From Candidatus Nanohalarchaeota archaeon (lineage in GTDB: Archaea > Nanohalarchaeota > Nanosalinia > Nanosalinales > Nanosalinaceae), in assembly GCA_022729235.1 (NCBI GenBank), contig JALDAJ010000001.1:224001-288000 (forward strand): a stretch of DNA of 64,000 nt, in the 5' to 3' direction. The position numbers and the translations under genes were made by a program. Shown piece by piece: positions 3,569 through 57,014 of the stretch. The notes beneath the pieces are model-generated. The model saw only the letters and a list, made by a program, of their open reading frames with translations, searched no databases and was not told the origin of the DNA. Every line of letters begins with the position of its first letter. The stretch's first letter is position 1.

Positions 3569-3633
3569 CTCCTCTCCAGCAGGGTAGCTTATAAGATTCT
3601 TAGTCAAGCTCTTCCTCATAGTGGCTTCCATAA

Positions 3634-3780
3634 GCCGGGGTGACTGAGTCTGGACGAAAGTGCCAGCCTGGAATAGCCGGCTCCTCTTTGAGGTGACGGC
3701 TTGAGAAGAGCTCTTCTCTTCGATCCCAGTCAGCTGGTGACCCATACCGGGTCTCCTGGGTTCAAATCCCAGCCCCGGCG
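3634..3780 (+). tRNA. tRNA-Ser(GGA) with 58-nt intron 3674-3731
   Basis: Acceptor GCCGGGG/CCCCGGC, anticodon GGA 3670-3672, long variable arm, BHB with CTGG/CCAG helix. Confidence 0.93.
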
Positions 3781-3793
3781 TCTTCGACGCCTT

Positions 3794-3908
3794 GCTGGAT
3801 TTGATTATCCTCACATCTCTCACGAGAAGTTCAGGGTTCAAATCCGAGAAATCCAGTTCTGGTTTCGAGTTGCAGAAAATCTTTTGATTTTCGAACCCAT
3901 ATCCGGCG
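3794..3908 (+). repeat. tRNA-derived inverted and direct copies plus two tandem GAA..TTC-GA hairpins
   Basis: gctggatttga (antisense T-arm), gggttcaaatcc, gagaaatccagttctggtttcga, gcagaaaatcttttgattttcgaa, degenerate 3' copy ending ccggcg. Confidence 0.7.
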
Positions 3909-3962
3909 CTTATCTAATATTCAGCCGGTTTTATAACCGAACTTCACCAAATCTTGTCCATC

Positions 3963-4811: not shown

Positions 4812-4869
4812 ACCCTGTTCCTGGGACTCCTTCCTTTATTTTTACTACTTGCGTCTTGAAGCCAGTTCT

Positions 4870-6237: not shown

Positions 6238-6248
6238 ATCTCTCCACT

Positions 6249-7889
6249 TCAAGTTGGACAAATCATTTCTCCAAGTTTTTCAGTCAACCTGTGATTTTCC
6301 TCGGGATCCACGGGAACCTCGATTACATCTACTTCTCCACTGTCCAGCGACTTCTCCAGTATTTCTGTAAGCTGGCAGGGCGATTCAACTCTGTGACCTT
6401 GAGCACCATAGCTCTCCGCCAGCTTCACGAAGTCAGGATTGTCGAACTCTGCGCCGAACTTGTGACCGTATTCATCCACCTGTTTCCATGTTATCGCACC
6501 TAATTCCTGATCATTGAATACCAGAAGCGTCAAATCAAGATTTAGACGTGTGGCTGTTTCAAGCTCTTGGGCGTTCATAACAAAACAGCCATCCCCTATT
6601 GTAGCTACTATATTCCTCTCAGGTTCCGCCAGCTTTGCACCTATAGCTCCAGGAAGCGCTATCCCCATAGTAGCCAGTCCGTTTGAAACAATGAACGTGT
6701 TGGGTTCATAGGTAGGGTATAACCTGCTCATCCAGAGTTTATGGGCTCCCGTATCTGTTATAAGCACGTCATCATCCGCCAGATGTTCTCTAAGATCATG
6801 CACTATTCTCTGGGGCTTCATAGGAAGTGAATCATCATTTGTGTACTTGTTAAACTCGTCTTCTATAAACCTCTTCAGGTCTCTCGAATATTCAGCATCT
6901 TTTCCTTCTATATCCTCCTCTTTCAAAGTCCTCAAGGATTGTCTAATATTCCCTACCATCTGTGCTGAAGGCCTGTAATGTTTGTCGACTTCCGGAATCC
7001 GTGAATCAATATGAATGATTTCCTTATCTCTATCAGGATTCCATTTTTCAGGATAATATTCTATGTAATCCGTACCTACGGCGATAATAAGGTCGGCCTT
7101 TTCTATACCACACATCACATAATCCCGGTTCTGAAGACCGATTGTACCGATAGAAAGGTCTTCTCTAGCCGAAATAGCTCCTTTACCCATGAAAGTAGTC
7201 ACGACAGGAATATTATTCTGTTTTACAAACTGTGTGAGCTCCTCAGACGCGCCGGAACGTATAACGCCGTTACCAGCTATTATATACGGATTTTCAGAAT
7301 CCTCTATTAGTTCAGCTACTTCTCTGACAGTTTCAGCGTCCGGTTTTGTATCGCTGTCAAGTCCGGGTTTCGGCAGCAAAGGTTCGCCAATATCCTTGTT
7401 TTCCAGGACATCCGCGGGAAGCTCTATATGAGTGGCTCCCGGTTTCTCAGACTCAGCAATCTGAAAGGACTTCCTGACTATTTCAGGTATAGCCTCCGGT
7501 TTTTCCACGGACTTATTGAACTGGGTGACTTCACTTAGAATATTTACGACATCAATATACTGGTGTGATTCCTTGTGCGTCTTATCTCTTTCTAGTTGAC
7601 CCGTTAAAGCTACTAGCGCGCCTGCATCCAGGTTTGCGTCAGCGACAGCTGTAATAAGATTCGTGGCTCCCGGTCCAAGAGTTGAAAGACATACCCCTGC
7701 ATCTCCTGTCAGCCTTCCATAAACATCCGCCATGAAAGCCGCTCCTTGCTCATGCCTTGTTAAAACAAGATCGATATCGGAGCGAGAAAGTTCGTCCATT
7801 ATACTCGTGGTCTGTTCACCCGGCAAACCAAAGATGTATTCCACTCCTTCATTTTCTAATGCCTTGATGAGAAGCTCAGAGCCTCTCAT
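6249..7889 (-). CDS. ThDP-dependent acetolactate-synthase-like enzyme (2-oxoglutarate decarboxylase-like subfamily)
   Basis: FGLPGE, TRHEQGAAFMA, STLGPGATN, SNGLATMG, GDG..N motif; adjacent to SSADH. Confidence 0.85.
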   Translation of the reverse strand: MRGSELLIKALENEGVEYIFGLPGEQTTSIMDELSRSDIDLVLTRHEQGAAFMADVYGRLTGDAGVCLSTLGPGATNLITAVADANLDAGALVALTGQLERDKTHKESHQYIDVVNILSEVTQFNKSVEKPEAIPEIVRKSFQIAESEKPGATHIELPADVLENKDIGEPLLPKPGLDSDTKPDAETVREVAELIEDSENPYIIAGNGVIRSGASEELTQFVKQNNIPVVTTFMGKGAISAREDLSIGTIGLQNRDYVMCGIEKADLIIAVGTDYIEYYPEKWNPDRDKEIIHIDSRIPEVDKHYRPSAQMVGNIRQSLRTLKEEDIEGKDAEYSRDLKRFIEDEFNKYTNDDSLPMKPQRIVHDLREHLADDDVLITDTGAHKLWMSRLYPTYEPNTFIVSNGLATMGIALPGAIGAKLAEPERNIVATIGDGCFVMNAQELETATRLNLDLTLLVFNDQELGAITWKQVDEYGHKFGAEFDNPDFVKLAESYGAQGHRVESPCQLTEILEKSLDSGEVDVIEVPVDPEENHRLTEKLGEMICPT

Positions 7890-7961
7890 AATCGAATCTC
7901 TCCTCCCGGAGATTTCTGCCTATCCATACTAATGTGTAAAAATGTTGCACATTTTTAAACA

Positions 7962-8270
7962 TTAAAGTCGTTCGATTGCCTCCCTCTTTTCCTCCATCCA
8001 CAAATCCAGTTCTTTACTGGCTTTCTCCCTGAGACTCTCAGAATCCATTGAATAGACATGTTCCCTCCCATTTCTTGAAACCTTAACCAAACCTGCTTTC
8101 TTAAGTCCTGACAGGTATCTCTGAACAGTGCTTCTGTCAAGATTGATACTATCAGATAGCTCTTTAACCGTCATCTCCTCTCCACAAAGCTCCATCAGGA
8201 TATCTACATCCCTACTTTTCAGCTTGAAAACAACACTCAAGAGCTCCTCTAACTCGGGGGAACACTCCAT
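7962..8270 (-). CDS. Winged-HTH transcriptional regulator (TrmB/COG3355-like)
   Basis: MTVKELSDSINLDRSTVQRYL; same strand, upstream of the ThDP enzyme. Confidence 0.8.
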   Translation of the reverse strand: MECSPELEELLSVVFKLKSRDVDILMELCGEEMTVKELSDSINLDRSTVQRYLSGLKKAGLVKVSRNGREHVYSMDSESLREKASKELDLWMEEKREAIERL

Positions 8271-8474
8271 ACATGTAAATAAAGAAACTATACTTTTATT
8301 CTTGAAACGTATCACAGCCAGCCAGAAGCCCGAATCCCTTTAACACGACCTTAATCAGTACCTGATTAATAGCTACTAACACGCGATTTCTGCAGAAGCC
8401 GTAAGAGAAACGAGTGTTCAAGGGACACACACAACATTAATAAACTTTGCGGTAACAACAGTTCTCTTGTAACC

Positions 8475-8681
8475 ATGACAGAATGCGAAATCTGTGGTAG
8501 AACCGAGAAAGAACTCAGCGAAGAGTTCGGACGCGAGATCAAGGTTAGCGAGCATGAAGGCATGAACAAGTGCCAGAAATGCCTCAGCGAGTACCAGAGA
8601 GAGACAGGGGAAGAAAAAGTCGAAGACCTTGATAACGAGCTCGCGGAAAGTAAGGACTGGAAAGACGTCGTAACGGCGTAA
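8475..8681 (+). CDS. Small Zn-finger protein
   Basis: CEIC...CQKC, acidic tail. Confidence 0.7.
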   Translation: MTECEICGRTEKELSEEFGREIKVSEHEGMNKCQKCLSEYQRETGEEKVEDLDNELAESKDWKDVVTA

Positions 8682-8712
8682 CATTTCTATTTCTTCCTTC
8701 CAAAACTTAGAC

Positions 8713-9063
8713 ATGCCACAGCCAGAAAACTATCTCAGAACCATCTACGAACTCTCCGAGAAAGGAGAGAGTTCTACAGCCAACTCCGAAGTAGCTGAGG
8801 CTCTAGACGTATCAGACGCAAGCGCCTCGGAAGCCATACAGAAACTGGAGGAGCGAAATCTAGTGTGCAGAGCACCCTACAAAGGCATTACCCTGAGCCC
8901 ACCCGGGAAAAAGCAGGGAGAAAAACTCTCCAGAAAATACAGCGTACTTGTAAAATTCTTCGAATGGTTAGGAGTTGAAAACCCTGAAAAAGAAGCTGTT
9001 GAAATAGAACACGCGATTTCCAGTGATGCCACGGAAAAGATAGAAGAACTCGTCAACAGATAA
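8713..9063 (+). CDS. DtxR/MntR-family metal-dependent regulator
   Basis: ENYLRTIY, HTH, PYKGITL, EAVEIEHAIS. Confidence 0.9.
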   Translation: MPQPENYLRTIYELSEKGESSTANSEVAEALDVSDASASEAIQKLEERNLVCRAPYKGITLSPPGKKQGEKLSRKYSVLVKFFEWLGVENPEKEAVEIEHAISSDATEKIEELVNR

Positions 9064-9154
9064 CATGTCAACGATATCAGTCCTCCAGGAACTAGTCCCC
9101 CAAGAATAGACTGTTTTCTTAAGTGTTGCCTTCTTTCAGTAAAATGTACGAAAC

Positions 9155-9210
9155 AGCCCCCTGGTGTGAACGCAGATACGAGATCTGCTTGAAGCACACA
9201 GGAAGCAAAT
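9155..9210 (+). repeat. Direct copy of the tRNA-Gln 5' end, core hairpin (reverse orientation) and degenerate inverted copy
   Basis: agccccctggtgt at 9155 and 9211; gcagat-acgag-atctgc; acacaggaagc. Confidence 0.72.
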
Positions 9211-9343
9211 AGCCCCCTGGTGTAGCGGTCAATCATAGCGGCCTTTGGCACCTCAAGTTCTCGTCAGGGAACGAGGACTTTGAAGAGCTCTGCTCTTCAG
9301 GTGAAGATAGCCGCTGACCCAGGTTCGAATCCTGGGGGGGCTA
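9211..9343 (+). tRNA. tRNA-Gln(TTG) with 60-nt intron 9249-9308
   Basis: Acceptor AGCCCCC/GGGGGCT, anticodon TTG 9245-9247, BHB. Confidence 0.93.
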
Positions 9344-9346
9344 ACC

Positions 9347-9628
9347 ATGGCATCAGAAGTACGTGCATCCCACATCCTGGTCGACAGCAAGGAAAAAGCA
9401 CAGAACATAAAAGAACAGCTGGACAACGGAAAAAGCTTTGAACAGCTGGCAAAGGAGGCAAGCGAATGTCCCTCATCGGAGAAAGGAGGAGACCTCGGAT
9501 TTTTCGGAAAAGGTGACATGGTCAAGCCGTTCGAGAGGAAGGCGTTCAGCATGGATGTCGGCGACGTTTCCGGACCTGTCAAGACAGAGTTCGGGCATCA
9601 CCTGATCAAGAAGACTGATGAACGCTGA
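9347..9628 (+). CDS. Parvulin-type peptidyl-prolyl isomerase (PpiC/Par10-like)
   Basis: ASHILV, SECPS..KGGDLGFF, MVKPFE, VKTEFGHHLI. Confidence 0.93.
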   Translation: MASEVRASHILVDSKEKAQNIKEQLDNGKSFEQLAKEASECPSSEKGGDLGFFGKGDMVKPFERKAFSMDVGDVSGPVKTEFGHHLIKKTDER

Positions 9629-9678
9629 ACGCTGTCCACCCTTTATAAAATTTAGAGTGAAGTTGAGTGGTACGGGTT

Positions 9679-10170
9679 ATGTCTGAGACAAAAGAAGTTG
9701 TAAGAATTGCAAGAACAGATATCGACGGCACCAAGCCTGTAGCCAAAGCTATAACCTCACTGCAGGGTGTCGGCGAGACTTACGGTCACGCAGTATCACA
9801 GGTAATAGATGTAGATACAGAGACCAAGATAGGAGACCTTAGCGATGAAGAAATCGATAAAATCGAGGATACTATAAGAAGCCCGGAGGAAGCCGGAATC
9901 CCTGAATGGCTCAGAAACAGAAGAAAAGATAGGGAAGAAGGAGATGACCAGCACCTGATAGGTTCGGATCTTGAACTGAAAGAAGAATTCGATATCAGGC
10001 GCCTGAAAGAAATCGACTCGTACAAGGGCTGGAGACACGAAATCGGACTACCTGTTAGAGGACAGAAGACCAAGTCCTCGTTCAGATCAGGTTCAAAAAT
10101 CGGTGTTTCACGCGCACGCCTAAGAGAAGAAGCTTCCGAAGGCGGCGGAGACGACGAAGGTGAGGAGTAA
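9679..10170 (+). CDS. rps13: 30S ribosomal protein S13
   Basis: VRIARTDIDG, WLRNRRKD, GLPVRGQKTKS. Confidence 0.96.
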   Translation: MSETKEVVRIARTDIDGTKPVAKAITSLQGVGETYGHAVSQVIDVDTETKIGDLSDEEIDKIEDTIRSPEEAGIPEWLRNRRKDREEGDDQHLIGSDLELKEEFDIRRLKEIDSYKGWRHEIGLPVRGQKTKSSFRSGSKIGVSRARLREEASEGGGDDEGEE

Positions 10171-10192
10171 TGCACGGACAAGGTGATTTTGA

Positions 10193-10783
10193 GTGGTAAA
10201 AAAACTGAAGAAGCAGTACGAGACTCCTAACGAAGGATGGAACCAGGAAAGAATTAACAGAGAAATAGAGCTTATGGAGGAATACGGACTGAAGAACAAG
10301 GAAGAAGTCTTCAAAGCCCAGAGCCAGCTAAGAAGCCTGAGACGCGAAGCCCGTAACCTGGTAGCATCGGAAAACGAGAAGGAAAGGAAAGATCTTATTG
10401 AGAAAGCCAACCGGCTAGGGATTGTAAAAAAGGATGCAGAGCTTGAGGATATACTATCCCTAAGTGTTACAGACTTCCTTAACAGGAGACTCCAGACCGC
10501 AGTAAACAGGCGAGGATATACAGACACAGTGCAGGAGGCACGACAGCTTGTTGTTCACGGTCACGTTTACGTCAACGGACAGAGAGTAAACGTCCCGAGC
10601 TACATGCTTACACAGGAGGAAGAAAAAGGTATAGAGGTAATACTGCCTGAACCAGAAGATGAAGAAACAGAGCAGGAAGAAGATGAAGCCGAAGCAGAAA
10701 CAGGTGAAGAAGAGGAAACGGAAGAAAATGAAGAAGCAGAGGAAAAAACTGACGAAGAATCCGAAACGGAGGAAGAAGAATGA
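10193..10783 (+). CDS. rps4: 30S ribosomal protein S4 with long acidic tail
   Basis: [26 protein letters not shown]; SD GGTGA; GTG start. Confidence 0.96.
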
Positions 10784-11160
10784 CTAAAGGAATAGTTAAC
10801 ATCTACTCAAGCTTCAATAACACGATAATCCACATAACTGATGCTACAGGAGCTGAAACAATTTCCCGTATATCATCAGGCATGGTTACCGACAAAGGTC
10901 GGCTCCAGGGAGAACCGTTCCCTGCTATGAAGGCAGCGAAACAAGCAGTAGAGGAGGCACTGGAGAAAGGCATAGAAGAAGTAGACATCCAGGTAAGAGC
11001 ACCTGGAGGACAGAAACAGAAGATGCCCGGGAAAGGCGCACAGCCAGCTATCCGTGCGATTTCACGAAGCGAAATCGATGTCGGAAACATCGAAGACGTT
11101 ACACCCGAACCACACGACGGCGTAAGAGCCAAAGGCGGTAAGAGAGGTCGAAGAGTATGA
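10780..11160 (+). CDS. rps11: 30S ribosomal protein S11
   Basis: [40 protein letters not shown]. Confidence 0.97.
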
Positions 11161-11729
11161 ATATCGAAGTTGAAACAGAAGAAGACGGCGTCATGGAACT
11201 AAGACTTGAAAACGGGAACGCCGCAGTAGCGAACACTCTAAGACGCACAATGATGGCTAAAGTACCAACCCTCGCGGTACAGCACCTGGATATCGTGAAG
11301 AACGAGTCAGGTATTTTCGATGAAGTCCTGGCTAACAGGGTCGGACAGGTACCATTTACTATACCCGATAACGTTGAAGAAGGCGATACCGTGAACATCG
11401 CCCTGAAACAGGAAGGACCCGGAACAGTACTCGCTGAAGATCTCAAAACAGACAACGACGAGGCAGAACCTGTCAACCCAGAAGCTGTATTAGTCAGCCT
11501 GAAAGAAGATCAGGCACTGGAATTCGAGGCAGAAGCACAGCTAGGACGCGGTAAGGACCACACCAAACACCAGGGAGGAACAATCGGCTACGAGAAAGTC
11601 GATGAAGGAGAATTCCTCTTCAGGATAGAATCAACTTCCGGCTACAGCAACGAAGAACTCGTGGAAGCTGCGATTCAAGAAGTCAAGCAGGAACTTGATG
11701 AGTTCGAAGAAGCAGTTGAAGAGCTGTAG
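11157..11729 (+). CDS. rpoD: RNA polymerase subunit Rpo3/D (short form)
   Basis: [40 protein letters not shown]; position after rps11. Confidence 0.93.
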
Positions 11730-11814
11730 AATTTTTCTCTCATTCTGGATAACCTACCTCCCCCACTTTAAACTCTTCTACATTAATTCTCCTCTAGAGC
11801 CAGCTGTATCCAAC

Positions 11815-11965
11815 GCCGGGGTGGCCGAGTGGCTAAAGGCGCGGGACTTAAGTTCCTCAAGTTCTCCGACAGGGAGAACGAGGACCTAGAAGCGAACGCA
11901 CGTGAGCTTCGTGAGGATATCCCGTCCCCGCAGGGGGTGCGCGAGTTCAAATCTCGCCCCCGGCA
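11815..11965 (+). tRNA. tRNA-Leu(TAA) with 66-nt intron 11853-11918
   Basis: Acceptor GCCGGGG/CCCCGGC, anticodon TAA 11849-11851, long variable arm. Confidence 0.92.
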
Positions 11966-11978
11966 AATAATTTTTTCT

Positions 11979-12043
11979 GGCGAGATTTAATAAGCGGCAG
12001 AAAATCTCCGATTTTCAACCGAGTTCAAATCCCTGCCCCGGCA
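11979..12043 (+). repeat. Inverted T-arm copy, core hairpin and direct copy of the tRNA-Leu 3' end
   Basis: ggcgagatttaa; gcagaaaatc-tcc-gattttcaa; cgagttcaaatccctgccccggca. Confidence 0.8.
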
Positions 12044-12121
12044 TTTTCAGTGCTTACAAGCTGTAAGAACAGACCTTCCGAAAAGTTTAGGCAAGCCTAA
12101 AAAAGGTTGTACTCTAGTGCA

Positions 12122-12376
12122 ATGTTTGTTATGTCCTATAGTAAAGATTTCTCCCATCTTGAAGACACAGTGAAAACCTGCCTAGGAGACGGTTATGGAG
12201 TCAGTATAGGCACCAATAATGATAATTTTGAGGTCTACGTGACACCAGCAGACGGGCTAAGCAGCGAAGAGTTGGAAAAAATTGAAGAAGACGTACGTCG
12301 AGCTATCAATCCAGGAGCATACTGCGACAGTCACAGACTTGAGGAGTTCTATAGAGTGAGAATCCGCGCCCCATAG
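12122..12376 (+). CDS. Hypothetical protein inserted in the ribosomal cluster
   Basis: Acidic ORF, no recognised motif. Confidence 0.5.
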   Translation: MFVMSYSKDFSHLEDTVKTCLGDGYGVSIGTNNDNFEVYVTPADGLSSEELEKIEEDVRRAINPGAYCDSHRLEEFYRVRIRAP

Positions 12377-12452
12377 CTCTCAAACCATGACACCAGCGCA
12401 ACCGATTTATAAAGTTTTATCTCAACTGAATGACTACAGCCATCAGTGGTCT

Positions 12453-12500
12453 CGGTCGAACCTCTGGTTCGAGCCGTTGAGAAGATCTCTGATCTTCGAA
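12453..12500 (+). repeat. Two-hairpin palindromic element in the rpl18e 5' leader
   Basis: cggtcgaacc-tct-ggttcgagccg ttga-gaagatc-tct-gatcttc-ga; TATA tttataaa at about 12406. Confidence 0.8.
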
Positions 12501-12518
12501 CCGCGAGGTGAATACATC

Positions 12519-12869
12519 ATGGATAAAAACGCAGACCCAACCAACCCAGTACTTATCGAAACTCTAGATGTTCTTGAGGAGCAGGAAGCTCCTATATGGA
12601 ACTCAGTTAGAGAAAACCTTGGAAAAGTTAACCGTCAACGACCTGAAGTCAATATATCGGATATCGAAAGGATCGCAGAGGACGGAGAAACAGTTGTTGT
12701 ACCTGGTAAAGTACTTGGAGCCGGAAGACTGACAAAGAACGTTACAGTCTCCGCATTCGACGTTTCAAAAGGTGCAAGACAGAAAATCGAAGAAGACGGC
12801 GAGTTCATGTTTATCCAGGATTTAGTTGAGGAAAATCCCGAAGGAGAAGGGGTGAGAATAGTAAAATGA
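12519..12869 (+). CDS. rpl18e: 50S ribosomal protein L18e
   Basis: TNPVL, APIW, VNISDI, VVPGKVLGAG; SD GAGGTGA. Confidence 0.95.
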   Translation: MDKNADPTNPVLIETLDVLEEQEAPIWNSVRENLGKVNRQRPEVNISDIERIAEDGETVVVPGKVLGAGRLTKNVTVSAFDVSKGARQKIEEDGEFMFIQDLVEENPEGEGVRIVK

Positions 12870-13303
12870 CTGATACAGAAAATGTGGTAGTGATCAACGC
12901 TGAAGGCAAAGTAATCGGAAGACTGGCGTCAGAAATCGCGAGAAAAGTTAGAGACGGAGAAGAAGTAAGAGTTGTGAACTCTGAAAAAGTAGTTATCTCA
13001 GGCGATGAAGAAGAGATAAAAGCTGATTACAGACAGAGACACGAGAGAGGCGCAAGACACGACGGTCCTTACTTCCCAAAGAGACCTGACAAGATACTGA
13101 AGAGAACAGTCAGAGGCATGCTACCGTACAAGAACCAAGAGGGTCGAGAGGCATTCAAAAGAGTCAAGACCTACCTGGGTGTCCCTGAAGAGTTCGAAGA
13201 CTACGAAGAAGTTGAAGAGGTCAAGGAAGGAGACGAGCTGAAGAACCGGAACTATGTAAAACTTGGCGAAGTATCCAAGCACATCGGGTGGACTCCTAGA
13301 TGA
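12866..13303 (+). CDS. rpl13: 50S ribosomal protein L13
   Basis: IGRLAS, GPYFPKRPD, RTVRGMLPYK. Confidence 0.96.
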   Translation: MTDTENVVVINAEGKVIGRLASEIARKVRDGEEVRVVNSEKVVISGDEEEIKADYRQRHERGARHDGPYFPKRPDKILKRTVRGMLPYKNQEGREAFKRVKTYLGVPEEFEDYEEVEEVKEGDELKNRNYVKLGEVSKHIGWTPR

Positions 13304-13707
13304 GCGATGAAGCATTCGGAACCGGGAAAAGAAAGACAGCGAAGGCTAGAGCAAGCATAGAAGAGGGCGAAGGAACACTTAGGATTAACTCCAAGCCCCT
13401 GCACACGCTGCCCAAGATGTCCCAGCAGAGGATTAAAGAACCGCTTACCATCGCTGGCGAAGAAATAATAGAAGAAATCAGCATAGAGGTCAATAGCAAC
13501 GGGGGCGGAGTACAGGGACAGGCAGAAGCCATCAGGATGGCTATCGCCCGCGCACTAGTAGAATACACAGACAGCGACGAACTCGAAAACAAGTTCCGTG
13601 AATACGACAGGAACATGCTGGTCGAGGACCCACGAAGAACTGAGACCAGAAAACCCTCACAGTCGAGCAAAGGAGCCCGACACAAACAACAGAAGTCCTA
13701 CAGGTGA
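13300..13707 (+). CDS. rps9: 30S ribosomal protein S9
   Basis: GKRKTAKARA, GGGVQGQAEA, DPRRTE, QKSYR. Confidence 0.97.
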   Translation: MSDEAFGTGKRKTAKARASIEEGEGTLRINSKPLHTLPKMSQQRIKEPLTIAGEEIIEEISIEVNSNGGGVQGQAEAIRMAIARALVEYTDSDELENKFREYDRNMLVEDPRRTETRKPSQSSKGARHKQQKSYR

Positions 13708-13764
13708 TCAGCAGTGCATTTCACTGAAATGGACTTCGCAAAAACTCACGGAGGTGAGTTTTGA

Positions 13765-13962
13765 GTGCAGATACCAGTTAGATGTCTTTCATGCGGAAAA
13801 GTTATCGCAGACAAGTGGGAAGAATTCCAGGAACGTACAGAAGAAGGTGAGGACGCTGGAGAAGTACTTGACGACCTCGGAGTCGACAAATACTGCTGCA
13901 GAACAATCTTCCTGACCCATGTCGACACAATCGATGAAATCGGGGAACACAAGATTACTTGA
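13765..13962 (+). CDS. rpoN: RNA polymerase subunit Rpo10/N
   Basis: IPVRCLSCGKV, LDDLG..YCCR; GTG start with SD GGAGGTGA. Confidence 0.96.
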   Translation: MQIPVRCLSCGKVIADKWEEFQERTEEGEDAGEVLDDLGVDKYCCRTIFLTHVDTIDEIGEHKIT

Positions 13963-14344
13963 GTAACTTCCTCAGCGCTGGAAGAATCATCTCCAGATTA
14001 GGAGCCAGCTCTATATCCTCCAGCTTAGAGGAGTCAATCCACTCCATCTCAGAGAATTTTTCCTCTTTTATCTCCGGCTCTCCGCTCTTTATCTTCGAAA
14101 GATATCCGTGCCAGAGAAAAAGTTCTCCATCATGCTGGAACTCTCCGCTGAAAAACGGTTTCTCAAGCGCCACTTCGACACCGAGTTCCTCCCCTGCCTC
14201 CCTCACAGCGGCTTCGGTCGGCGACTCCTCGTCTTCAACCTTGCCACCAGGCACCTCCCACCAACATTCATCTTCCCTGTAAAGAAGGAGGACCTTGCCG
14301 TTCTCGACTATAACATTACCTGCAAGTTCAGTTACGCCGCTCAT
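13955..14344 (-). CDS. NUDIX hydrolase
   Basis: PGGKVE..ES..EAAVREAGEELG. Confidence 0.92.
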   Translation of the reverse strand: MSGVTELAGNVIVENGKVLLLYREDECWWEVPGGKVEDEESPTEAAVREAGEELGVEVALEKPFFSGEFQHDGELFLWHGYLSKIKSGEPEIKEEKFSEMEWIDSSKLEDIELAPNLEMILPALRKLLK

Positions 14345-14498
14345 AACTCCTCTGCACCCTCCCGGAGTTCATTTATTTCTCGATTATTTCCCGAAAACAG
14401 GCATCCTACCACCATAAAATCTCCATATCACTGGAAATTTCTTAATCTTCCGGATATATCAGTCAGGTTTTTATTCCAGCCTCCTTCAAACCTTCCTA

Positions 14499-16742
14499 AT
14501 GGGTATCGATAGTTTCCTGGACAAGCTGAAATCAAGTGATGAGGACTTCGAGGAGCAGATTGAACAGCTCCAGGAGGAGGAAACAACCGAGGTACGGAAC
14601 CAGATCAATAATGCTATCGGCGAATCACTTTCAGAGCTTGAAAATGAGTGGAAGAAGGCGTTCGAGACATACCGGAAACGCGACCAAGAACGCTTCCTTG
14701 AGGCAGTCAAGAACATAAAGAGAAATATAGTTGAGGAAATATCCGAGGAACTGGGGGAAATAACTGAACGAGAGCACGAAGAGATAGAACAGCAGATAAA
14801 AACACAGTTAGGGACTTTTGAACAGCGGCTAGGAAACGTAGAACAGGAATTAAAGCACGATATTGGTACAAAGGCAGACAGAAACTGGGTAGAAGAACTT
14901 GAAGACCGTATCGAACAGTTTCTAGAAGAAGAAAAACAGCTCGAAGAAGAATTTGACGGATTCAGGTCCGAAACCAACTCCCGCCTCAACGAGCTTCGGA
15001 CTGATACGTCAGAGAACCGAGAAATAGTGAAGAGCCTCCAGGAAAACCTGGAGAAGCATGAATCCGGCACTGATAACCGATTCGAGAAGCACCGGGATAG
15101 ACTAAACGCTGAAAGCCAGACCCGGGAAGAGATGGAGGAACGCCTCAAGAACAGGATATCCTCGCTCTCGACCGAGTTCGACTCCATGGAGGAGTCTGTA
15201 CACGAGAAGACACAGAACGTACTTGACTCGAACAAGAAGATGTCCCAGAGACTGGACAACATCCAGAAACGGATGGACGAAGCCGGGGAGGCAAGACTGA
15301 ATCTCCGTGAGGAACTTGAAAAAGAACGGGAGCAACGTCTCGAAGAAGTAAAGAACAAGGTGATAGAAAAGACACCAGATCATGAAGATGTCAACAGACT
15401 CCGGGAGAAGCATGCCTCGCTCCAGAACGAGATGGATGAGAAAGCTGAAACAACCGAGATAAGCCGGCTTGAGGAGAACATCGGATCTTTCGAGAAAAGA
15501 CTTGACAGTTTATCAGAAACATTACCGGAGAAACATGAGATTCAGAACCTTGAAGACCGGGTGGAAGAAGTCAAAGAGGAATTATACGGATCTCTGGATG
15601 AGACACGCGGAGACCTGCACGAACGGATTGAGGAGAAAGTTGCGGAGATACAGGAAGAGATAAACCAGCTCGAGGACGCGGCAGAACACGACCGGAACGA
15701 GCTCTGGGGTAAGACAAGCGAACTCGGCTCCTGGCTGGAATCCATACAGGGACGGGTTGAAGAGGTTGAAGACAACAGGGACGAGTTCTGGGACAACCTT
15801 GAGACCACGAGAGCGGAACAGCGGGAGCTAAGGCAGGATGTTGAAGAAAAAGAAGAGAATCTGTCATCTAGAATAGAGGGTGTCGAGAACTCTCTCAATT
15901 CACGGGCAGATAACCTTGAGGAAAACATGTCACAGAACAAGAGCGAGCTGGAAGCCCGGATAGAAAGGGAGACCGGAGAAGTGAGAGATAAACTATCTTC
16001 AAGAATCCAGGATGTTGAAAGCGGTGCTGAGTCAAGAATGGACTCTATACAACAGAGCATATCCGAGACAAAGAACGACTTCGAGACCCAGCTGGACAGG
16101 AAGACAAAGATGTTGAGACAGGATCTAAACGATAATTTAGAGCAGGAAGTCGAGATACTTGACAACAAAGTTGAATCCAACAGGGATAGTCGTGAATCGA
16201 TGAGAAGCGAAGTGAAAGGAGAGCTCCAGTCTGTAGAGAAGAAAGTTGACAGCCTCAACCAGGAGATGGAAGGACTGCGTTCAAGGCTCGAAGACGAAAA
16301 AGCAAACCTGAAACAGGAGCTGATGAATGTAGAAAACGAGATCGATGATCTCAGATCAGAAATAGGGAAAAAAGCGGACAAATCCCGGTTCTCAAACATC
16401 GATGTCGAAGCTCTACACCGCAATGCACAGCAGTTGCAGGAAAGAGCAGAAACCGCGCCCGGTAGCGGTACCGCACCGCCCGAAAACAACAATCAACAGG
16501 ATTTAAGCGATACTCTGAGACCCTCCGAAGTTACCTGGAACATGGAAGGTAACCGTGCAAAAGTAGAGGGAAGTTTAGAGTTCAGGAGAAATATTGACGG
16601 CAACTACCTGTACACTTTCTCAGACGGACAGGACAGCATCATAGTCAAGAGCAACTTAAGACTTGAAGAAGGACCGGAAACGCTTACAGGAAGAATAAAG
16701 ACAATGGACGACATTCTCTACCTCGAACCTGAACACGCTTAA
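14499..16742 (+). CDS. Long acidic coiled-coil protein with small C-terminal beta (OB-fold-like) domain
   Basis: About 640 aa of heptad pattern, Pro/Gly linker, then YLYTFSDGQDSIIVK; no Walker motifs. Confidence 0.75.
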   Translation: MGIDSFLDKLKSSDEDFEEQIEQLQEEETTEVRNQINNAIGESLSELENEWKKAFETYRKRDQERFLEAVKNIKRNIVEEISEELGEITEREHEEIEQQIKTQLGTFEQRLGNVEQELKHDIGTKADRNWVEELEDRIEQFLEEEKQLEEEFDGFRSETNSRLNELRTDTSENREIVKSLQENLEKHESGTDNRFEKHRDRLNAESQTREEMEERLKNRISSLSTEFDSMEESVHEKTQNVLDSNKKMSQRLDNIQKRMDEAGEARLNLREELEKEREQRLEEVKNKVIEKTPDHEDVNRLREKHASLQNEMDEKAETTEISRLEENIGSFEKRLDSLSETLPEKHEIQNLEDRVEEVKEELYGSLDETRGDLHERIEEKVAEIQEEINQLEDAAEHDRNELWGKTSELGSWLESIQGRVEEVEDNRDEFWDNLETTRAEQRELRQDVEEKEENLSSRIEGVENSLNSRADNLEENMSQNKSELEARIERETGEVRDKLSSRIQDVESGAESRMDSIQQSISETKNDFETQLDRKTKMLRQDLNDNLEQEVEILDNKVESNRDSRESMRSEVKGELQSVEKKVDSLNQEMEGLRSRLEDEKANLKQELMNVENEIDDLRSEIGKKADKSRFSNIDVEALHRNAQQLQERAETAPGSGTAPPENNNQQDLSDTLRPSEVTWNMEGNRAKVEGSLEFRRNIDGNYLYTFSDGQDSIIVKSNLRLEEGPETLTGRIKTMDDILYLEPEHA

Positions 16743-16780
16743 AAGTGTTATACTCGATTTCTTCTATACTCATTTACAAT

Positions 16781-16855
16781 GCGGCCGTGGTGTAGTCCGG
16801 TCAATCATCTCGGCCTTTCGAGCCGATCACCCGGGTTCAAATCCCGGCGGCCGCA
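16781..16855 (+). tRNA. tRNA-Glu(TTC), no intron
   Basis: GCGGCCG/CGGCCGC acceptor, TCGGC-CT-TTC-GA-GCCGA. Confidence 0.95.
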
Positions 16856-16877
16856 TAACCTTTCAGGTTCTACTTGA

Positions 16878-16911
16878 GCCGGGTTTTGAAGGAAAAATCC
16901 TGGCGGCCGCA
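16878..16911 (+). repeat. Inverted and direct copy of the tRNA-Glu 3' end
   Basis: gccgggttttgaa (antisense of ttcaaatcccggc) then aaatcctggcggccgca. Confidence 0.75.
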
Positions 16912-16932
16912 CTTAATTATCTTCTATAAACA

Positions 16933-17250
16933 CTACTCGTTATTCTGCTTATACGTGCTCCACATGTAAACCAGTCTCTTGAAACAGTTCTTCCAGTCGT
17001 CTTCTCTGGTGAAGAACATCTTCTTCCATTCACCATCAATTTTCAGCATTATAGAGGGAAAAACAGGGTCAAGCTCGAAATCCAGGTCTTCTACATCCGA
17101 ATATTTCACGGAGTCAAGTATGATCTCTCTCGAAAACATGTCCGAAATCCGCTCCCAGTCCTCCACATCTTCTCTTTCCCGGGAAATACTTCCAAGACCT
17201 AAAGTGACATCACCCAGTTTTGATTCAAAGGTCTCCTCATCTTCGTTCAT
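16933..17250 (-). CDS. Hypothetical protein
   Basis: Acidic ORF abutting the citryl-CoA lyase stop. Confidence 0.65.
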   Translation of the reverse strand: MNEDEETFESKLGDVTLGLGSISREREDVEDWERISDMFSREIILDSVKYSDVEDLDFELDPVFPSIMLKIDGEWKKMFFTREDDWKNCFKRLVYMWSTYKQNNE

Positions 17251-17952
17251 CTAATCACCGATGTACTCTCCTTCTTCACGCCGGAAGTCTTCCTCGTCCA
17301 TCTCTTCACGTACGTGCGCGACGAGTCCCGGTGTCCTCGCGATTATGAACAATCCTTTCCCAAGTTCAGGCTCCCAGCCGAGGTCAGACATAACCGAGGC
17401 GATAGCACCGTCCACATTGATAACCAGCCGTGTCTTCCTTTCTGCGAACTCTTCCTGTATCCGTCTTATCTTCTCAACGTGCTCTCCAGCGATGCCAAGT
17501 TCTTCCGCTTTCTCGAATATCTTCTCGGCTCTAGGATCCTCCTCGTCATAGACCTTATGCCCTATACCAGGGAGTTTCTCACCCCTGTCGAGGCATCCTT
17601 CAACTATCTCTTCCGCCCCGTCTTCCTGCTGGAGCATCTCCATCGCGCCCTCGATAGCGCCACCGTGCTTGTCGCCGAGCGCGAGCACGCCAGAGGCTAC
17701 ACTAGCATTCATATCGTTTCCTCCGCTCTGGACGGTGCGGGCGGAAACAGTTGACGGGTTGCCGATGCCGTGGTCGATACAGCTCGAAAGTATCGTGTTG
17801 AAAATTTCCGATTCTCCGTCGCTTGGCTCTTCCCCTCTCAGCACCAGCCAGATAGCGTCCGCGAAATCCATGTCCATCACGTCTTCCAGTAGCTCTCCTC
17901 GGACAACCGCGTCCTCACCGCTTGAAGAGATACTAGTCTCCCACTCCGACAT
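17251..17952 (-). CDS. Citryl-CoA lyase (citrate-synthase-like fold)
   Basis: DHG..PS, HGGA, PGIGH, DPRA, NVDG, ARTPGLVAH; about 233 aa. Confidence 0.87.
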   Translation of the reverse strand: MSEWETSISSSGEDAVVRGELLEDVMDMDFADAIWLVLRGEEPSDGESEIFNTILSSCIDHGIGNPSTVSARTVQSGGNDMNASVASGVLALGDKHGGAIEGAMEMLQQEDGAEEIVEGCLDRGEKLPGIGHKVYDEEDPRAEKIFEKAEELGIAGEHVEKIRRIQEEFAERKTRLVINVDGAIASVMSDLGWEPELGKGLFIIARTPGLVAHVREEMDEEDFRREEGEYIGD

Positions 17953-18355
17953 GTTCTTCACCCGATTTGTTGATCGAGATTTGTCGCATCGTAAGGTCTT
18001 CCAGTATCTCGTTTACCGATACTTCGCCTGGTTCAAGGGCTTTCAAGAGAGATGAGCCGACCCTTTTCCTCCAGACCTCATCTATTTTCTCTCGGGTCCT
18101 ACCCGAACCATCTTCATAGGTAAGCTCGATTACCGCATTTTCCTCACCGCTGGCGTAGACCTCTATAGTATGACTTGAAGAATCTATTTTCAGGTAACGC
18201 GCATCCTCTCCCAGTTGCATCTCTAGAGATTCCTCGTCCTCATATCTGTCACCGTGGTCGCGTAGTTGTGCCAAAAAACGGTTAATATCATACTCCTCAC
18301 CTATACTACTTTTCCGGTAAGCAATACCTCCTTCTCTTCCGTATAACGTCCTCAA
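17933..18355 (-). CDS. Hypothetical protein within the citrate operon
   Basis: Overlaps both neighbours; acidic. Confidence 0.55.
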   Translation of the reverse strand: MRTLYGREGGIAYRKSSIGEEYDINRFLAQLRDHGDRYEDEESLEMQLGEDARYLKIDSSSHTIEVYASGEENAVIELTYEDGSGRTREKIDEVWRKRVGSSLLKALEPGEVSVNEILEDLTMRQISINKSGEEHVGVGD

Positions 18356-24400: not shown

Positions 24401-24434
24401 GCGGGGGTAGCCAAGAATAGCTTGCCAACCCCCT
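24401..24434 (+). repeat. Direct and inverted copy of the tRNA-Leu(TAG) 5' end
   Basis: gcgggggtagccaag at 24401 and 24467; cttgccaaccccct is the antisense. Confidence 0.8.
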
Positions 24435-24466
24435 CCTCAAAAACAATAGGCAAGCCTTTACCCCAT

Positions 24467-35634: not shown

Positions 35635-35729
35635 TGGACCCTCAGGGATTCGAAAATCGAAGATTTTCTTCTCCTCAGAACTCTGCCGAGTTCTTCAGTT
35701 TGAAGAAATCCCTGATGTAAACTGAAGAG
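35635..35729 (-). repeat. Inverted copy, hairpins and direct copy of the tRNA-Ala 3' end
   Basis: tggaccctcagggattcgaa (35635) vs tggaccctcagggatttgaa (35730); core agaaaatc-ttc-gattttcgaa on the minus strand. Confidence 0.82.
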
Positions 35730-56742: not shown

Positions 56743-56940
56743 CCCTATAGAAACTCAGTACCGTACTGCGCCATTATGTCCGCAGATTCGTGGTACATTC
56801 CAGGGTTCTCAAGATAGTGTTCTACCACCCCGTCAACTAAACCATCCACCCCATAAGCAATACCTTCAAAATATTCTAGACATGACTCCCCAAGAGACTC
56901 CTCTGTATATAACTCCAGTTCGACAAAATTCAGGACACGA

Positions 56941-56998
56941 AGTGTAGCCGAGCCCGGATTTGAATTCGAAGACAAGTCTTCTGCAACCAAATGCGGGC
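56941..56998 (-). repeat. Inverted copy, core hairpin and 24-nt direct copy of the tRNA-Phe 3' end
   Basis: agtgtagccgagcccggatttgaa (56941) vs agtgtggccgagcccggatttgaa (57011); minus-strand gcagaagac-tt-gtcttcgaa. Confidence 0.85.
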
Positions 56999-57014
56999 AT
57001 AGGCACACAAAGTG

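What the first reader, a model, noticed from the sequence alone, without database searches (positions are those of the whole stretch)
11815..12043. Target - inverted copy - core hairpin - direct copy signature at tRNA 3' ends (type example tRNA-Leu)
Seen: after tRNA-Leu(TAA) come an antisense copy of its own T-arm (ggcgagatttaa, 11979), the core hairpin (11997-12018) and a direct copy of its 3' end (12020-12043). The same order, each time using that tRNA's own sequence, occurs after Ser, Ala and Phe, and after Glu without a clear core. Classical attR duplications from tyrosine integrases give only a direct repeat flanking kb-scale cargo; here the unit is under 130 bp and includes an inverted copy. 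Inference: insertion uses fold-back or template-switch synthesis that copies target DNA into both arms.
Basis: partly seen in the sequence, partly recalled or inferred. Interest (0 to 1): 0.88.

Follow-up and report, generated by a model that had tools for sequence, protein, structure and literature searches.

The report
Hairpin units that copy gene ends
Behind many tRNA genes (and a few protein genes) of this tiny salt-loving archaeon sits a short non-coding unit made of a backward copy and a forward copy of the gene's own end around a conserved hairpin, a layout found across its phylum that fits no described mobile element and whose origin is still open.

Summary
tRNA-Leu(TAA) (11815-11965) is followed by a reverse-complement copy of its T-loop/T-stem (X', 11979-11990), a hairpin (11997-12018) and a direct copy of its last 24 nt (X, 12020-12043, 21/24 identical). 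In the window the same layout follows tRNA-Ser, Glu, Ala(TGC) and Phe. Genome-wide, 13 of 35 tRNAs have a downstream copy of their own 3' end, against 0 of 35 upstream.

It is wider than reported:
- The exact hairpin core occurs in 49 of 70 genomes of the phylum (Nanohaloarchaeota).
- The same "gene end, inverted copy, hairpin, direct copy" layout sits at the thermosome gene's stop codon in 8 of 29 genomes, at the end of ribosomal protein L14, and in mirror image at some tRNA 5' ends.
- Related hairpin modules sit inside tRNA introns.
- Units differ between two species of one genus.

No transposase, reverse transcriptase or Cas1 is encoded here, and the only integrases lie in a 32-kb island.

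Best reading (about 0.45): DNA-level palindromic insertion/duplication units made by strand-switch copying around hairpins.

Rivals: guide-directed single-strand transposition, a selected structure, or integration scars. Nothing shows how they move.

The parts
11815..11965 (+). tRNA-Leu(TAA), intact, with 66-nt intron at the canonical position
   Evidence: ARAGORN -i; Rfam tRNA 46.8 bits
11966..11978 (+). trailer with a T6 run (likely terminator of the tRNA gene)
   Evidence: sequence
11979..11990 (+). X': reverse complement of T-loop 3' part plus T-stem 3' strand of the tRNA (GCGAG 5/5 cognate)
11997..12018 (+). conserved core hairpin GCA-GAAAATC-TCC-GATTTTC-AA
12020..12043 (+). X: direct copy of the last 24 nt of the tRNA (21/24), ends at the discriminator base
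3794..3908 (+). unit behind tRNA-Ser(GGA) 3634-3780: X' 3794-3804, T-loop copy 3834-3845, two hairpins 3846-3869 and 3872-3895 lying inside the copy, rest of X 3896-3908
   Evidence: (Ser(TGA) twin), 63
16879..16911 (+). unit behind tRNA-Glu(TTC) 16780-16856 without core: X' 16879-16890, X 16895-16911
35635..35714 (-). unit behind tRNA-Ala(TGC) c35729-35878: X' 35705-35714, extra hairpin 35678-35693, core 35649-35668, X 35635-35648 (14/14; 16/16 if the last two bases of the core flank are counted)
56933..57008 (-). unit behind tRNA-Phe c57014-57132: full reverse-complement copy of the tRNA end 56987-57008, core 56965-56984, X plus copied trailer 56933-56964
24401..24435 (+). mirror-image case upstream of tRNA-Leu(TAG) 24467-24550: direct copy of its first 15 nt (24401-24415) and an inverted copy (24421-24435, 12/15)
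9155..9167 (+). direct copy of the first 13 nt of tRNA-Gln(TTG) (9210-9347), 55 nt upstream of it

Best explanation
What it is: a family of very small (about 55-130 bp), non-coding, hairpin-cored palindromic units, specific to the phylum Nanohaloarchaeota. Each unit lies just outside the intact end of a conserved, probably highly expressed gene.

Layout of each unit, in order:
1. The gene end.
2. A short palindrome that includes the last 2-4 bases of the gene.
3. A reverse-complement copy of part of the gene end (X').
4. A conserved hairpin of the shape (G)CA/GA-GAARAnC-loop-GnTYTTC-GA(A).
5. A direct copy of the last 7-25 nt of the gene (X), which ends at the discriminator base or the stop codon.
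X' and X pair, so the unit is one long imperfect hairpin with the conserved hairpin at its tip.

How it most likely arises (inferred, not shown):
- It arises at DNA level by copy-choice synthesis. A growing strand that has copied the gene end turns back on itself and copies it backwards (X').
- It turns again at, or switches into, a hairpin module that already exists at other loci. The T-loop and the TTCGAA end of the module offer the microhomology.
- It then copies the gene end forwards once more (X) before running on into the flank.
- Modules are afterwards exchanged between loci, and units are lost by recombination between the gene end and X.

Shown: the architecture, its specificity for the neighbouring gene, its spread in the phylum, its turnover between species, its presence at protein genes, and the lack of an encoded transposase, reverse transcriptase or Cas1.
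Inferred: every step of the mechanism.
For: Geometry:
- Direct-inverted-direct order with two palindromic pivots at tRNA 3' ends, the thermosome 3' end, the L14 3' end and tRNA 5' ends.
- The Phe unit holds a reverse-complement copy of the whole 3' end plus 2 trailer bases.
- In the Trp, Lys and Gly units the stretch between the tRNA end and the core has the length expected of such a copy (by eye).
- The left and right linkers beside the core vary together in length: 5/4, 4/3, 9/8, 8/7, 7/6 (by eye).

Specificity for the neighbouring gene:
- X' fits the cognate T-stem (70 against 56.9 matches, 3 of 20,000 permutations as high).
- X' follows a rare TTCGAAT T-loop (Leu(GAG) of G001).
- X' follows the lineage's own thermosome codons: TCCCGCC, TCATTCC, CATCTTCC, ATTCCTTCC.

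Turnover:
- G000 and the same-genus G001 carry units at mostly different tRNAs.
- The Leu(TAA) site carries X in 3 of 10 syntenic relatives.
- tRNA-Phe carries X in 10 of 28 genomes.

No dedicated enzyme in G000: no Y1 transposase, RT, Cas1 or rve, and only a sub-threshold DDE fragment. The two tyrosine recombinases lie inside a 32-kb low-GC island.

Not an artefact: the same layout is seen in more than 20 separately assembled genomes.
Against: - The hairpin, its unequal flanks (GCA against GAA) and trailer modules are shared between loci and genera. TCGCTTTCAGCGCTG follows Gly and Phe genes; TATCAGAGATATGCT follows Trp and Lys. A fresh fold-back would not make them.
- X' is imperfect even where X is perfect (19-24 of 19-24), often with an extra or wrong pyrimidine two bases before ATTTGA. 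It is therefore not a faithful copy at birth.
- X sometimes looks like another allele rather than a decayed copy. In the thermosome case X differs by an in-frame 9-nt gap, a synonymous change and another stop codon. Behind Gly(TCC) the X copies carry the ACGCCGCA end that 20 of 30 relatives have, not G000's ACTCCGCA.
- The ends of X coincide with the discriminator base or the stop codon more sharply than random switch points should.
- Units of G000 and G024 (Phe), and of G000, G007 and G055 (thermosome), keep structure with compensatory stem changes while spacers diverge. That also fits selection.
- No read-level presence/absence was seen; only the source sample's contigs were available.
Confidence: 0.45

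Rival explanations
1. Guide-directed single-strand transposition, working like IS200/IS605 elements and their miniature derivatives. The mobile unit would be trailer + X' + hairpin + X. An enzyme would recognise the hairpin. X' would act as a long guide that pairs with the target, and the unit would be pasted immediately 3' of a chromosomal sequence that equals its own right end X. Gene ends would be the targets because they are conserved and safe.
For: - The topology equals an IS200/IS605 left end: target, about 15-20 nt, guide, imperfect hairpin (recalled knowledge of IS608).
- The insertion point lies exactly at the end of the sequence that X repeats.
- The same trailer + X' module sits at tRNAs with like T-stems, namely Gly(TCC), Gly(GCC) and Phe.
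- X is sometimes of another allele type.
- Tandem arrays occur at Lys, Gly, Pro and the thermosome gene of G055.
- The hairpin has conserved asymmetries and is the same across the phylum.
Against: - The Y1 transposase family has no match in G000 and matches in only 4 of 70 genomes of the phylum.
- The four IS200/IS605 loci inspected carry no core-like hairpin within 1.5 kb.
- Retargeting would need X' and X to change together.
- The core is at chance level in viral contigs: 29 single hits, against about 30 by my rough estimate.
Confidence: 0.2
2. A selected structure rather than a parasite: a module at the ends of highly expressed genes in which X' can pair either with the real gene end or with the decoy X. 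Such a switch could serve RNA 3'-end stability or processing, or some DNA-level role.
For: - Between genera the X', hairpin shape, spacing (15, 15, 15 and 17 nt from stop codon to X') and X are kept at the thermosome gene while spacers are scrambled.
- There is a compensatory stem change, GAAGAC/GTCTTC to GAAAAC/GTTTTC, between the Phe units of G000 and G024.
- The targets are tRNAs, the thermosome gene and L14.
- Of 51 hairpins of this shape, 43 lie outside called ORFs in a genome that is about 90% coding.
Against: - The units are dispensable and patchy: thermosome 8 of 29 genomes, Phe 10 of 28, Leu 3 of 10.
- T-runs right after several tRNAs should stop transcription before X'.
- At least 2 well-oriented hairpins lie antisense to their flanking genes.
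- No Rfam family matches.
- The fold of the type example is not exceptional.
Confidence: 0.15
3. Scars of site-specific or Campbell-type integration: att-like repeats left by larger mobile elements, or by small circular or dumbbell DNA carrying a copy of the gene end, with the cargo since deleted. The folded X'-hairpin-X would be comparable to an integron attC site.
For: - Copies that begin in the T-loop and end at the tRNA end are what tRNA-integrating elements leave (recalled, Williams 2002).
- tRNA-Pro(TGG) is followed by a 3.1-kb island with toxin-antitoxin-like genes and two more copies of its 3' end, one next to core hairpins.
- tRNA-Thr(GGT) flanks a 32-kb low-GC island with an integrase and a 13-nt repeat.
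- X copies can look like foreign or older alleles.
Against: - There are at least 13 different targets, each needing its own attP, yet the units share arms.
- There is no cargo in the units, and circles of about 75 bp are too small for duplex recombination.
- The two half-sites (X and X') lie 23-27 nt apart at tRNAs.
- Integron-integrase models score far below cut-off.
- The archaeal integron paper does not mention this phylum (search listing: 0 occurrences).
Confidence: 0.1
4. Chance resemblance or an assembly artefact.
For: The type example alone is weak: 21/24 identity, a non-cognate tail scoring as well, and fold z about -1. The only read data are contigs of the likely source sample.
Against: Controls give 13/35 downstream against 0/35 upstream and 1/700 random windows. 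The layout recurs in many independent assemblies. The core is in 49 of 70 genomes, with 0 hits for the reversed control pattern.
Confidence: 0.01

Closest known systems
REP elements / REPINs and IS200/IS605-derived palindrome-associated elements (PATEs)
   Same: Short imperfect palindromes with conserved unpaired flanks. They occur in many copies, in intergenic DNA, often just behind genes. They are non-autonomous and have single-strand hairpin logic, and the position of X' equals that of an IS200/IS605 guide.
   Different: There is no Y1 transposase or RAYT in this genome, and only 4 of 70 genomes of the phylum have one. The arms are made of the neighbouring gene's own end. A 7-25-nt copy of the target lies on the far side.
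att repeats of tRNA-integrating elements (tyrosine integrases)
   Same: A direct copy of the tRNA 3' part that begins in the T-loop and ends at the tRNA end. Arrays of such copies occur. Real islands of this kind exist in the same genome.
   Different: The units have no cargo or integrase, carry an inverted copy, share a hairpin across at least 13 targets, and also sit at protein-gene ends and tRNA 5' ends.
Templated-insertion and fold-back scars of template switching (quasi-palindrome mutation, DUP-TRP/INV-DUP, polymerase-theta-type snap-back repair)
   Same: Direct-inverted-direct order, palindromic junctions with short loops, and use of microhomology.
   Different: Those are one-off scars. 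Here the second junction always holds a conserved hairpin, and the events recur at the same kind of site across a phylum.
Transposed BHB introns of archaeal tRNAs (Thermoproteales); seen here only as titles and abstracts in a search listing
   Same: Hairpin modules of the units also occur inside the long tRNA introns of these genomes.
   Different: The units lie outside an intact tRNA. By inspection no bulge-helix-bulge can be drawn at their borders (not formally tested).
Integron attC sites
   Same: An imperfect folded hairpin whose two outer arms are inverted copies, with tandem arrays next to a primary site.
   Different: Here the outer arms vary and the centre is conserved, the reverse of attC. 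There is no integron integrase and no GTTRRRY core.

Membership tests
Classical tRNA-integrating element (tyrosine integrase, attL/attR) | Direct repeat of the tRNA 3' part on both sides of the insert | tested here: met
   13 of 35 tRNAs, against 0 of 35 upstream
Classical tRNA-integrating element (tyrosine integrase, attL/attR) | Integrase gene and cargo between the repeats | tested here: not met
   Inserts are 35-110 nt without an ORF. Both recombinase genes lie at 841 and 863 kb in a 32-kb island.
MITE | Terminal inverted repeats that are the same in all copies | tested here: not met
   The inverted arms X'/X differ by locus and follow the neighbouring gene.
MITE | Target-site duplication of fixed length | tested here: not met
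   X is 7-25 nt. Hairpins nested in pseudo-copies show 5-8-nt repeats.
MITE | Autonomous element with the same ends | tested here: not met
   PF01797 and PF00665 gave no match in G000, and PF01609 only a fragment below cut-off. Other transposase families were not searched.
IS200/IS605 derivative (PATE) or REP/RAYT | Y1 (HUH) transposase in the genome or its kin | tested here: not met
   No match in G000. 4 of 70 genomes of the phylum have one, and the 4 loci inspected lack the core hairpin.
IS200/IS605 derivative (PATE) or REP/RAYT | Subterminal imperfect hairpin, with insertion 3' of a sequence matched by an internal guide | tested here: inconclusive
   The topology fits, but pairing is 9-13 nt and no cleavage is known.
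BHB (splicing-endonuclease) intron | Interrupts the RNA gene, with a bulge-helix-bulge at both borders | tested here: not met
   The tRNA upstream is complete. No BHB could be drawn by inspection of the folds; no dedicated BHB search was run.
Integron cassette site (attC) | Integron integrase and R''/R' core sites GTTRRRY | tested here: not met
   Integron-integrase models score 31 and 23 bits against cut-offs of 265 and 435. The arms are gene-specific.
Diversity-generating retroelement (repeat at a gene's 3' end plus hairpin) | Reverse transcriptase and template/variable repeats of about 100 bp | tested here: not met
   No RVT_1 match in G000. The repeats are 7-25 nt.
CRISPR-like or casposon-like Cas1 integration (long duplications) | Cas1 | tested here: not met
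   No Cas1 match in G000.

The most novel reading that the evidence does not exclude
A so far undescribed way of moving DNA in a DPANN phylum. Hairpin-cored units of under 130 bp would either be written next to gene termini by host replication or repair enzymes through programmed strand switching, or be pasted there by an unknown hairpin-recognising enzyme that uses a 9-13-nt internal guide (X'). Each event would leave a spare copy of the gene's end. The same modules would also have built the unusually long tRNA introns of these genomes.
Probability: 0.3. Interest if true: 0.85.

Novelty: new variant of a known kind. Interest (0 to 1): 0.7.

Why it matters
- If these units are made without a transposase, they would be a clean natural case of template-switch mutagenesis working as a recurrent, site-directed process in archaea. 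If they are placed by a long internal guide, they would point to a new programmable insertion system.
- They mark tRNA and conserved protein-gene ends as turnover hot spots in 1-Mb symbiont genomes.
- They leave fossils of older gene ends that can be used to date changes in tRNAs.
- They share modules with tRNA introns, which bears on how archaeal tRNA introns grow and spread.
- For annotation, they explain pseudo-tRNA 3' fragments and breaks in the assembly graph next to tRNAs in Nanohaloarchaeota.

Tried and rejected
- Read-level presence/absence: the look-up of sequencing runs listed 3 runs of one soda-lake study. Only X1 holds the stretch, it may be the source, and no RNA holder was listed. 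Read laying on window 1-20000 gave contigs only and no joints. One contig covers 3870-20000 without a difference. This says nothing about strain variation.
- Known RNA families: only tRNA and rRNA at gathering thresholds. Nothing else of note at E<=1 on four loci.
- Viral origin: core plus T-loop pattern, 0 hits in viral contigs. Core alone, 29 single hits, about what I estimate by chance. Those loci were not examined.
- K-turn, box C/D, H/ACA and BHB readings of the hairpin were considered by eye on the sequences and dropped. The required GA positions, boxes or 3-nt bulges four base pairs apart are not there.
- tRNA made by splicing to the downstream copy: dropped, because the upstream tRNA is complete and the Leu copy could not pair with its T-stem.
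- Gly(TCC) copies as imports from Gly(GCC): dropped after one search showed they fit the commonest Gly(TCC) end of relatives.
- Literature: searches found no description of such units. I saw search listings only, except the abstract and outline of PMC3293823 and found passages of bioRxiv 10.1101/2025.02.15.638363. Supplements were closed and not asked for.
- A covariance model of the unit, and structure or complex predictions, were not run.
Full report
**Setting.** The window is bases 224001-288000 of a single 1,027,595-base contig with 48.5% G+C. It holds an archaeal rRNA operon. An exact 20-base version of the hairpin found here occurs in 8 public contigs. Seven are archaeal: four are titled Candidatus Nanohaloarchaea, Nanosalina or Nanohalobium, and three 'uncultured archaeon'. 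One is bacterial, which is about the chance expectation. The organism is therefore a member of the Nanohaloarchaeota. The only sequencing run that holds the stretch is a soda-lake metagenome.

**The observation.**
- ARAGORN without introns sees 3 tRNAs in the window. With introns it sees 10, and Rfam confirms 8 of them.
- tRNA-Leu(TAA), 11815-11965, has a 66-nt intron and is complete.
- It is followed by AATAATTTTTTCT, then GGCGAGATTTAA (11979-11990). This is the reverse complement of TTAAATCTCGCC and differs from the tRNA's own TTCAAATCTCGCC by one base missing in the loop part.
- Next comes the hairpin GCA-GAAAATC-TCC-GATTTTC-AA (11997-12018), then CGAGTTCAAATCCCTGCCCCGGCA (12020-12043). That copy matches 21 of the last 24 bases of the tRNA and stops at the discriminator base.
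- The same order follows Ser(GGA), Glu(TTC) (no central hairpin), Phe(GAA) and the tRNA at c35729-35878. ARAGORN calls that last tRNA Cys(GCA). I read it as Ala(TGC): stem TCCGC/GCGGA, loop TTTGCAA, G3:U70.
- His(GTG), Arg(TCT), Leu(TAG), Gln(TTG) and the tRNA at c61340 have no such 3' unit. ARAGORN calls the last one Ala(AGC); by its loop CTGTTAA it is Asn(GTT).

**Is it more than chance?**
- Across the genome, 13 of 35 tRNAs have a copy of their own last 32 nt (score at least 11.5) within 200 nt downstream. The controls give 0 of 35 upstream and 1 of 700 random windows, that one being a tRNA.
- The cognate tail ranks first for Gly(GCC), Glu, Ala(TGC), Phe, Pro(GGG), Lys(TTT) and Trp. For Leu(TAA) the Ser(GGA) tail scores 17.5 against 16.5, because the copy has decayed in the T-stem.
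- The inverted piece is short. Its loop part (GGATTTGA) would fit any tRNA, so only the 5 bases facing the T-stem are informative.
- Over 23 units from G000 and relatives these 5 bases match the cognate tRNA at 70 positions against 56.9 expected. 3 of 20,000 label permutations reach 70.
- That test is ungapped. It mis-anchors the Ala unit (truly CAGGG, 5/5), and it contains several related tRNA-Phe rows, so it is a rough figure.
- Telling cases are GCGAG for Leu(TAA), CAGGG for Ala, CCCGATTTG for a Tyr tRNA with a CGGGG stem, and ATTCGA where the tRNA has the rarer TTCGAAT loop.
- The type example is not a strong fold (z -1.1 as RNA, -1.4 as DNA). Younger units fold into one long hairpin in which X' pairs with the start of X and the conserved hairpin forms the tip.

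**Anatomy, from about 40 units.**
1. The intact gene end.
2. 8-23 nt that usually start with a small palindrome including the last 2-4 bases of the tRNA. Examples: CCA|TATC-AGA-GATA-TG, GCA|TCGC-TTTCA-GCGC-TGC, CCAC|AC-TTT-GT-GTG. They often contain a T-run.
3. X', 9-13 nt, the reverse complement of the T-loop 3' part and T-stem 3' strand. In Phe it extends over the acceptor strand, and in an Ala(GGC) unit of G001 it also covers six acceptor bases.
4. 2-10 nt of linker.
5. The hairpin, nearly always preceded by A and followed by G: (G)CA or GA, GAARAnC, a loop rich in T and C, GnTYTTC, GA(A).
6. A linker about one base shorter than the left one.
7. X, which begins in the T-stem 5' strand, the T-loop or later, and ends at the discriminator. 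In Phe and Lys it also copies some trailer.

Other points of anatomy:
- X' usually has 1-2 mismatches even when X is perfect, often an extra or wrong pyrimidine two bases before ATTTGA.
- Arrays of two or three units occur: Lys(TTT), Gly(TCC), Pro(GGG).
- Further hairpins can lie inside X, splitting it. This is seen in the four Ser genes, in a Phe unit of G001, in a Pro unit in L107, and in the displaced tRNA-Pro copy. Short 5-8-nt repeats lie at their sides.

**Beyond tRNA 3' ends.** Hairpins of the shape GAA-N4-loop-N4-TTC with perfect stems number 39 loci in G000 with loops of 3-4 nt. Three mononucleotide shuffles gave 0 to 8 strand-hits, against 78 strand-hits observed. With loops of 3-5 nt they number 51:

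| Position in G000 | Hairpins |
|---|---|
| Within 160 nt 3' of a tRNA | 11 |
| In tRNA introns | 4 |
| Within 160 nt 5' of a tRNA | 3 |
| Between my crude ORF calls | 25 |
| Inside my crude ORF calls | 8 |

Two non-tRNA sites in G000 show the full layout.
- *Thermosome gene.* The only thermosome gene ends ...GGAATGGGCGGCATGGGAGGAATGATGTGA. It is followed by 15 nt, CATCTTCC (an inverted copy of GGAATGATG with one base missing), 9 nt of linker ending in GCA, the hairpin GAAGATC-CCT-GATCTTC, and GAATGGGCGGTATGATGTAG. That last piece is a shorter, in-frame version of the gene end with its own stop codon.
- *Ribosomal protein L14 gene* (named by eye from the translation). It ends in GTGGTGTAA. It is followed by a fold-back (GTAAAATCAT-GACA-ATGATTTTAC), the hairpin, and GTGGTGTAAAA just before the start of the L24 gene.
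- *Relatives.* Of 29 loci of relatives fetched, 28 showed the thermosome gene end. 7 of these, plus G000, carry such a unit: G001, G006, G007, G014 (partly masked), G051, G055 (two units) and G023 (decayed). X always stops at the stop-codon position, which reads TAG, TAA or TGG. X' follows each lineage's own last codons.
- *tRNA 5' ends.* Mirror-image cases lie upstream of tRNAs. A copy of the leader plus the first 13-16 nt of the tRNA is followed by an inverted copy or hairpins, for Leu(TAG), Leu(GAG), Tyr, Gln, Pro(TGG) and Ser(TGA).
- *Another genome.* One locus has the same layout at the 5' end of a protein gene (L104).

**Distribution and turnover.**
- The exact core GAAAATC-NNN-GATTTTC occurs in 49 of 70 genomes of the phylum, with up to 15 copies. 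The reversed control pattern occurs in none.
- The same-genus genome G001 has units at Ala(GGC), Glu(CTC), Met, Tyr, Phe, Lys(CTT), Leu(GAG) and Lys(TTT). It shares only Phe and Lys(TTT) with G000. Only 24 tRNA loci of G001 were fetched.
- At the syntenic tRNA-Leu, 3 of 10 relatives have an X copy and 7 do not.
- At tRNA-Phe, 10 of 28 genomes have one.
- The Phe units of G000 and G024 are alike along their whole length (the BLAST match is 91% over 192 nt including the tRNA). They differ in the hairpin by a compensatory pair, GAAGAC/GTCTTC against GAAAAC/GTTTTC.
- The thermosome units of G000, G007 and G055 keep X', spacing and hairpin shape while the spacers differ.
- Trailer modules recur at different tRNAs. 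TATCAGAGATATGCT follows Trp and Lys. TCGCTTTCAGCGCTG follows Gly(TCC), Gly(GCC) and Phe in several genera.
- A module CTGGTTACGCT...CACGCAAGG lies in the introns of tRNA-Ala(TGC) and Thr(GGT) of G000. It also lies in 3' units of tRNA-Phe in G049 and G051.

**Age of the copies.** Behind Gly(TCC) of G000 the copies read ...GACGCCGCA while the tRNA now ends ...GACTCCGCA. Among 30 tRNA-Gly genes of the family, 20 end in GACGCCGCA and 3 in GACTCCGCA. So the copies keep the common, probably older, state. A Leu unit of G008 likewise keeps a CTCCG T-stem that other genera have. X is thus not kept identical to the gene. It is a fossil, or it came from elsewhere.

**Enzymes.**
- G000 gives no match to Y1 transposase, RVT_1, Cas1 or rve. 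It gives only a DDE_Tnp_1 fragment below cut-off and a weak TnpB-type zinc ribbon.
- Two tyrosine recombinases exist. Both lie in a stretch of about 40% G+C between 830 and 862 kb, beside tRNA-Thr(GGT), which has a 13-nt repeat of the tRNA end at its far side. Neither reaches the XerA or integron-integrase cut-offs.
- Y1 transposases occur in 4 of 70 genomes of the phylum. The four loci inspected have TnpA and TnpB-like ORFs but no core-like hairpin within 1.5 kb.

**Reading.**
- Classical att pairs do exist in this genome: the Thr island, and a 3.1-kb island behind tRNA-Pro(TGG) with two further copies of the tRNA end. They differ from the units, which have no cargo, always hold an inverted copy, and share a hairpin over many targets.
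- The order 'gene end, inverted copy, direct copy', with a small palindrome at the first turn and the hairpin at the second, is the geometry of two strand switches. The Phe unit and the matching lengths in other units speak for copying of the target in both directions. I therefore rank a DNA-level copy-choice origin first (0.45), with exchange of hairpin and trailer modules between loci.
- Against a pure fold-back stand five points: the conserved asymmetric hairpin, the shared modules, the imperfect X' in young units, the allele-like X at the thermosome gene, and the sharp ends at discriminator and stop codon.
- These points fit an element that carries X' and X and chooses its target by pairing, as IS200/IS605 elements do on a smaller scale (0.2). 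But no enzyme is in sight.
- Conservation with compensatory change could also mean a selected structure (0.15), yet the units are patchy and often lie behind a T-run.
- Integration scars (0.1) and chance or artefact (0.01) follow.

**Novelty.** My six literature searches found no description of such units in Nanohaloarchaeota or elsewhere. The library lacks most subscription papers, and supplements were closed. The nearest kinds are REP/PATE-type palindromes and template-switch scars. Each fails on a defining feature tested here.

Noticed in passing
window 3634-3780, 9210-9347, 11815-11965, 35729-35878, 44378-44570, 57014-57132, 61340-61525: 7 of 10 tRNAs in the window have long introns (44-116 nt) at or near the canonical position. 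Several share a first hairpin (CCTCAAGTTCTC...GAGAACGAGGAC) followed by a GA-GAAGAnC...TTC-GA hairpin. This suggests one intron family spread over different tRNAs.
   Followed up: partly
window 35729-35878 (-) and 61340-61525 (-): ARAGORN mislabels two intron-bearing tRNAs. The first reads as Ala(TGC) with G3:U70, not Cys(GCA). The second reads as Asn(GTT), not Ala(AGC) (my reading).
   Followed up: partly
G000:C1:921928-922103 and 92052-92328 (outside the window): The introns of tRNA-Trp (102 nt) and one tRNA-Met (203 nt) contain box C/D-like motifs (ATGAGGA, CTGA, GATGATTAA). This recalls the guide RNAs in these introns of other archaea (recalled). Not tested.
   Followed up: no
G000:C1:about 830000-863900 (outside the window): A stretch of about 32 kb at about 40% G+C beside tRNA-Thr(GGT). 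It holds two tyrosine recombinase genes and a 13-nt repeat of the tRNA end at 831263. It is a likely integrated virus or plasmid.
   Followed up: partly
L037 (G000:C1:155500-160500): Behind tRNA-Pro(TGG) lies a 3.1-kb islet. By eye from the translations it holds a nucleotidyltransferase/HEPN-like pair and an RHH/RelE-like pair. It is bounded by two more copies of the tRNA 3' part. The nearer copy keeps 41 nt of the tRNA body and has two hairpins inside its T-loop.
   Followed up: partly
window 39282-39300 and 44061-44077: Hairpins of the same shape (GA-GAAGACC...GGTCTTC-GAA; GA-GAAGAGC-TTT-GCTCTTC-GA) lie just after the 23S rRNA gene and further downstream. Each is preceded by CGACTTACTCC...GGGAGTTGGTCG.
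   Followed up: no
G000:C1:217816-217900 (outside the window): The unit between the L14 and L24 genes duplicates the ribosome-binding region and an ATG. This creates a 19-codon reading frame that ends in ATGA overlapping the L24 start.
   Followed up: no
window 3753-3899: The source sample's contig graph breaks here and shows 3 single-base variants. This is probably because the Ser(GGA) unit is nearly identical to the unit behind Ser(TGA) at 590.6 kb.
   Followed up: no
L110-L115 (G039, G055, G042, G056): IS200/IS605-type elements (Y1 transposase with a TnpB-like ORF) exist in 4 of 70 genomes of the phylum, one of them with in-frame stops.
   Followed up: partly
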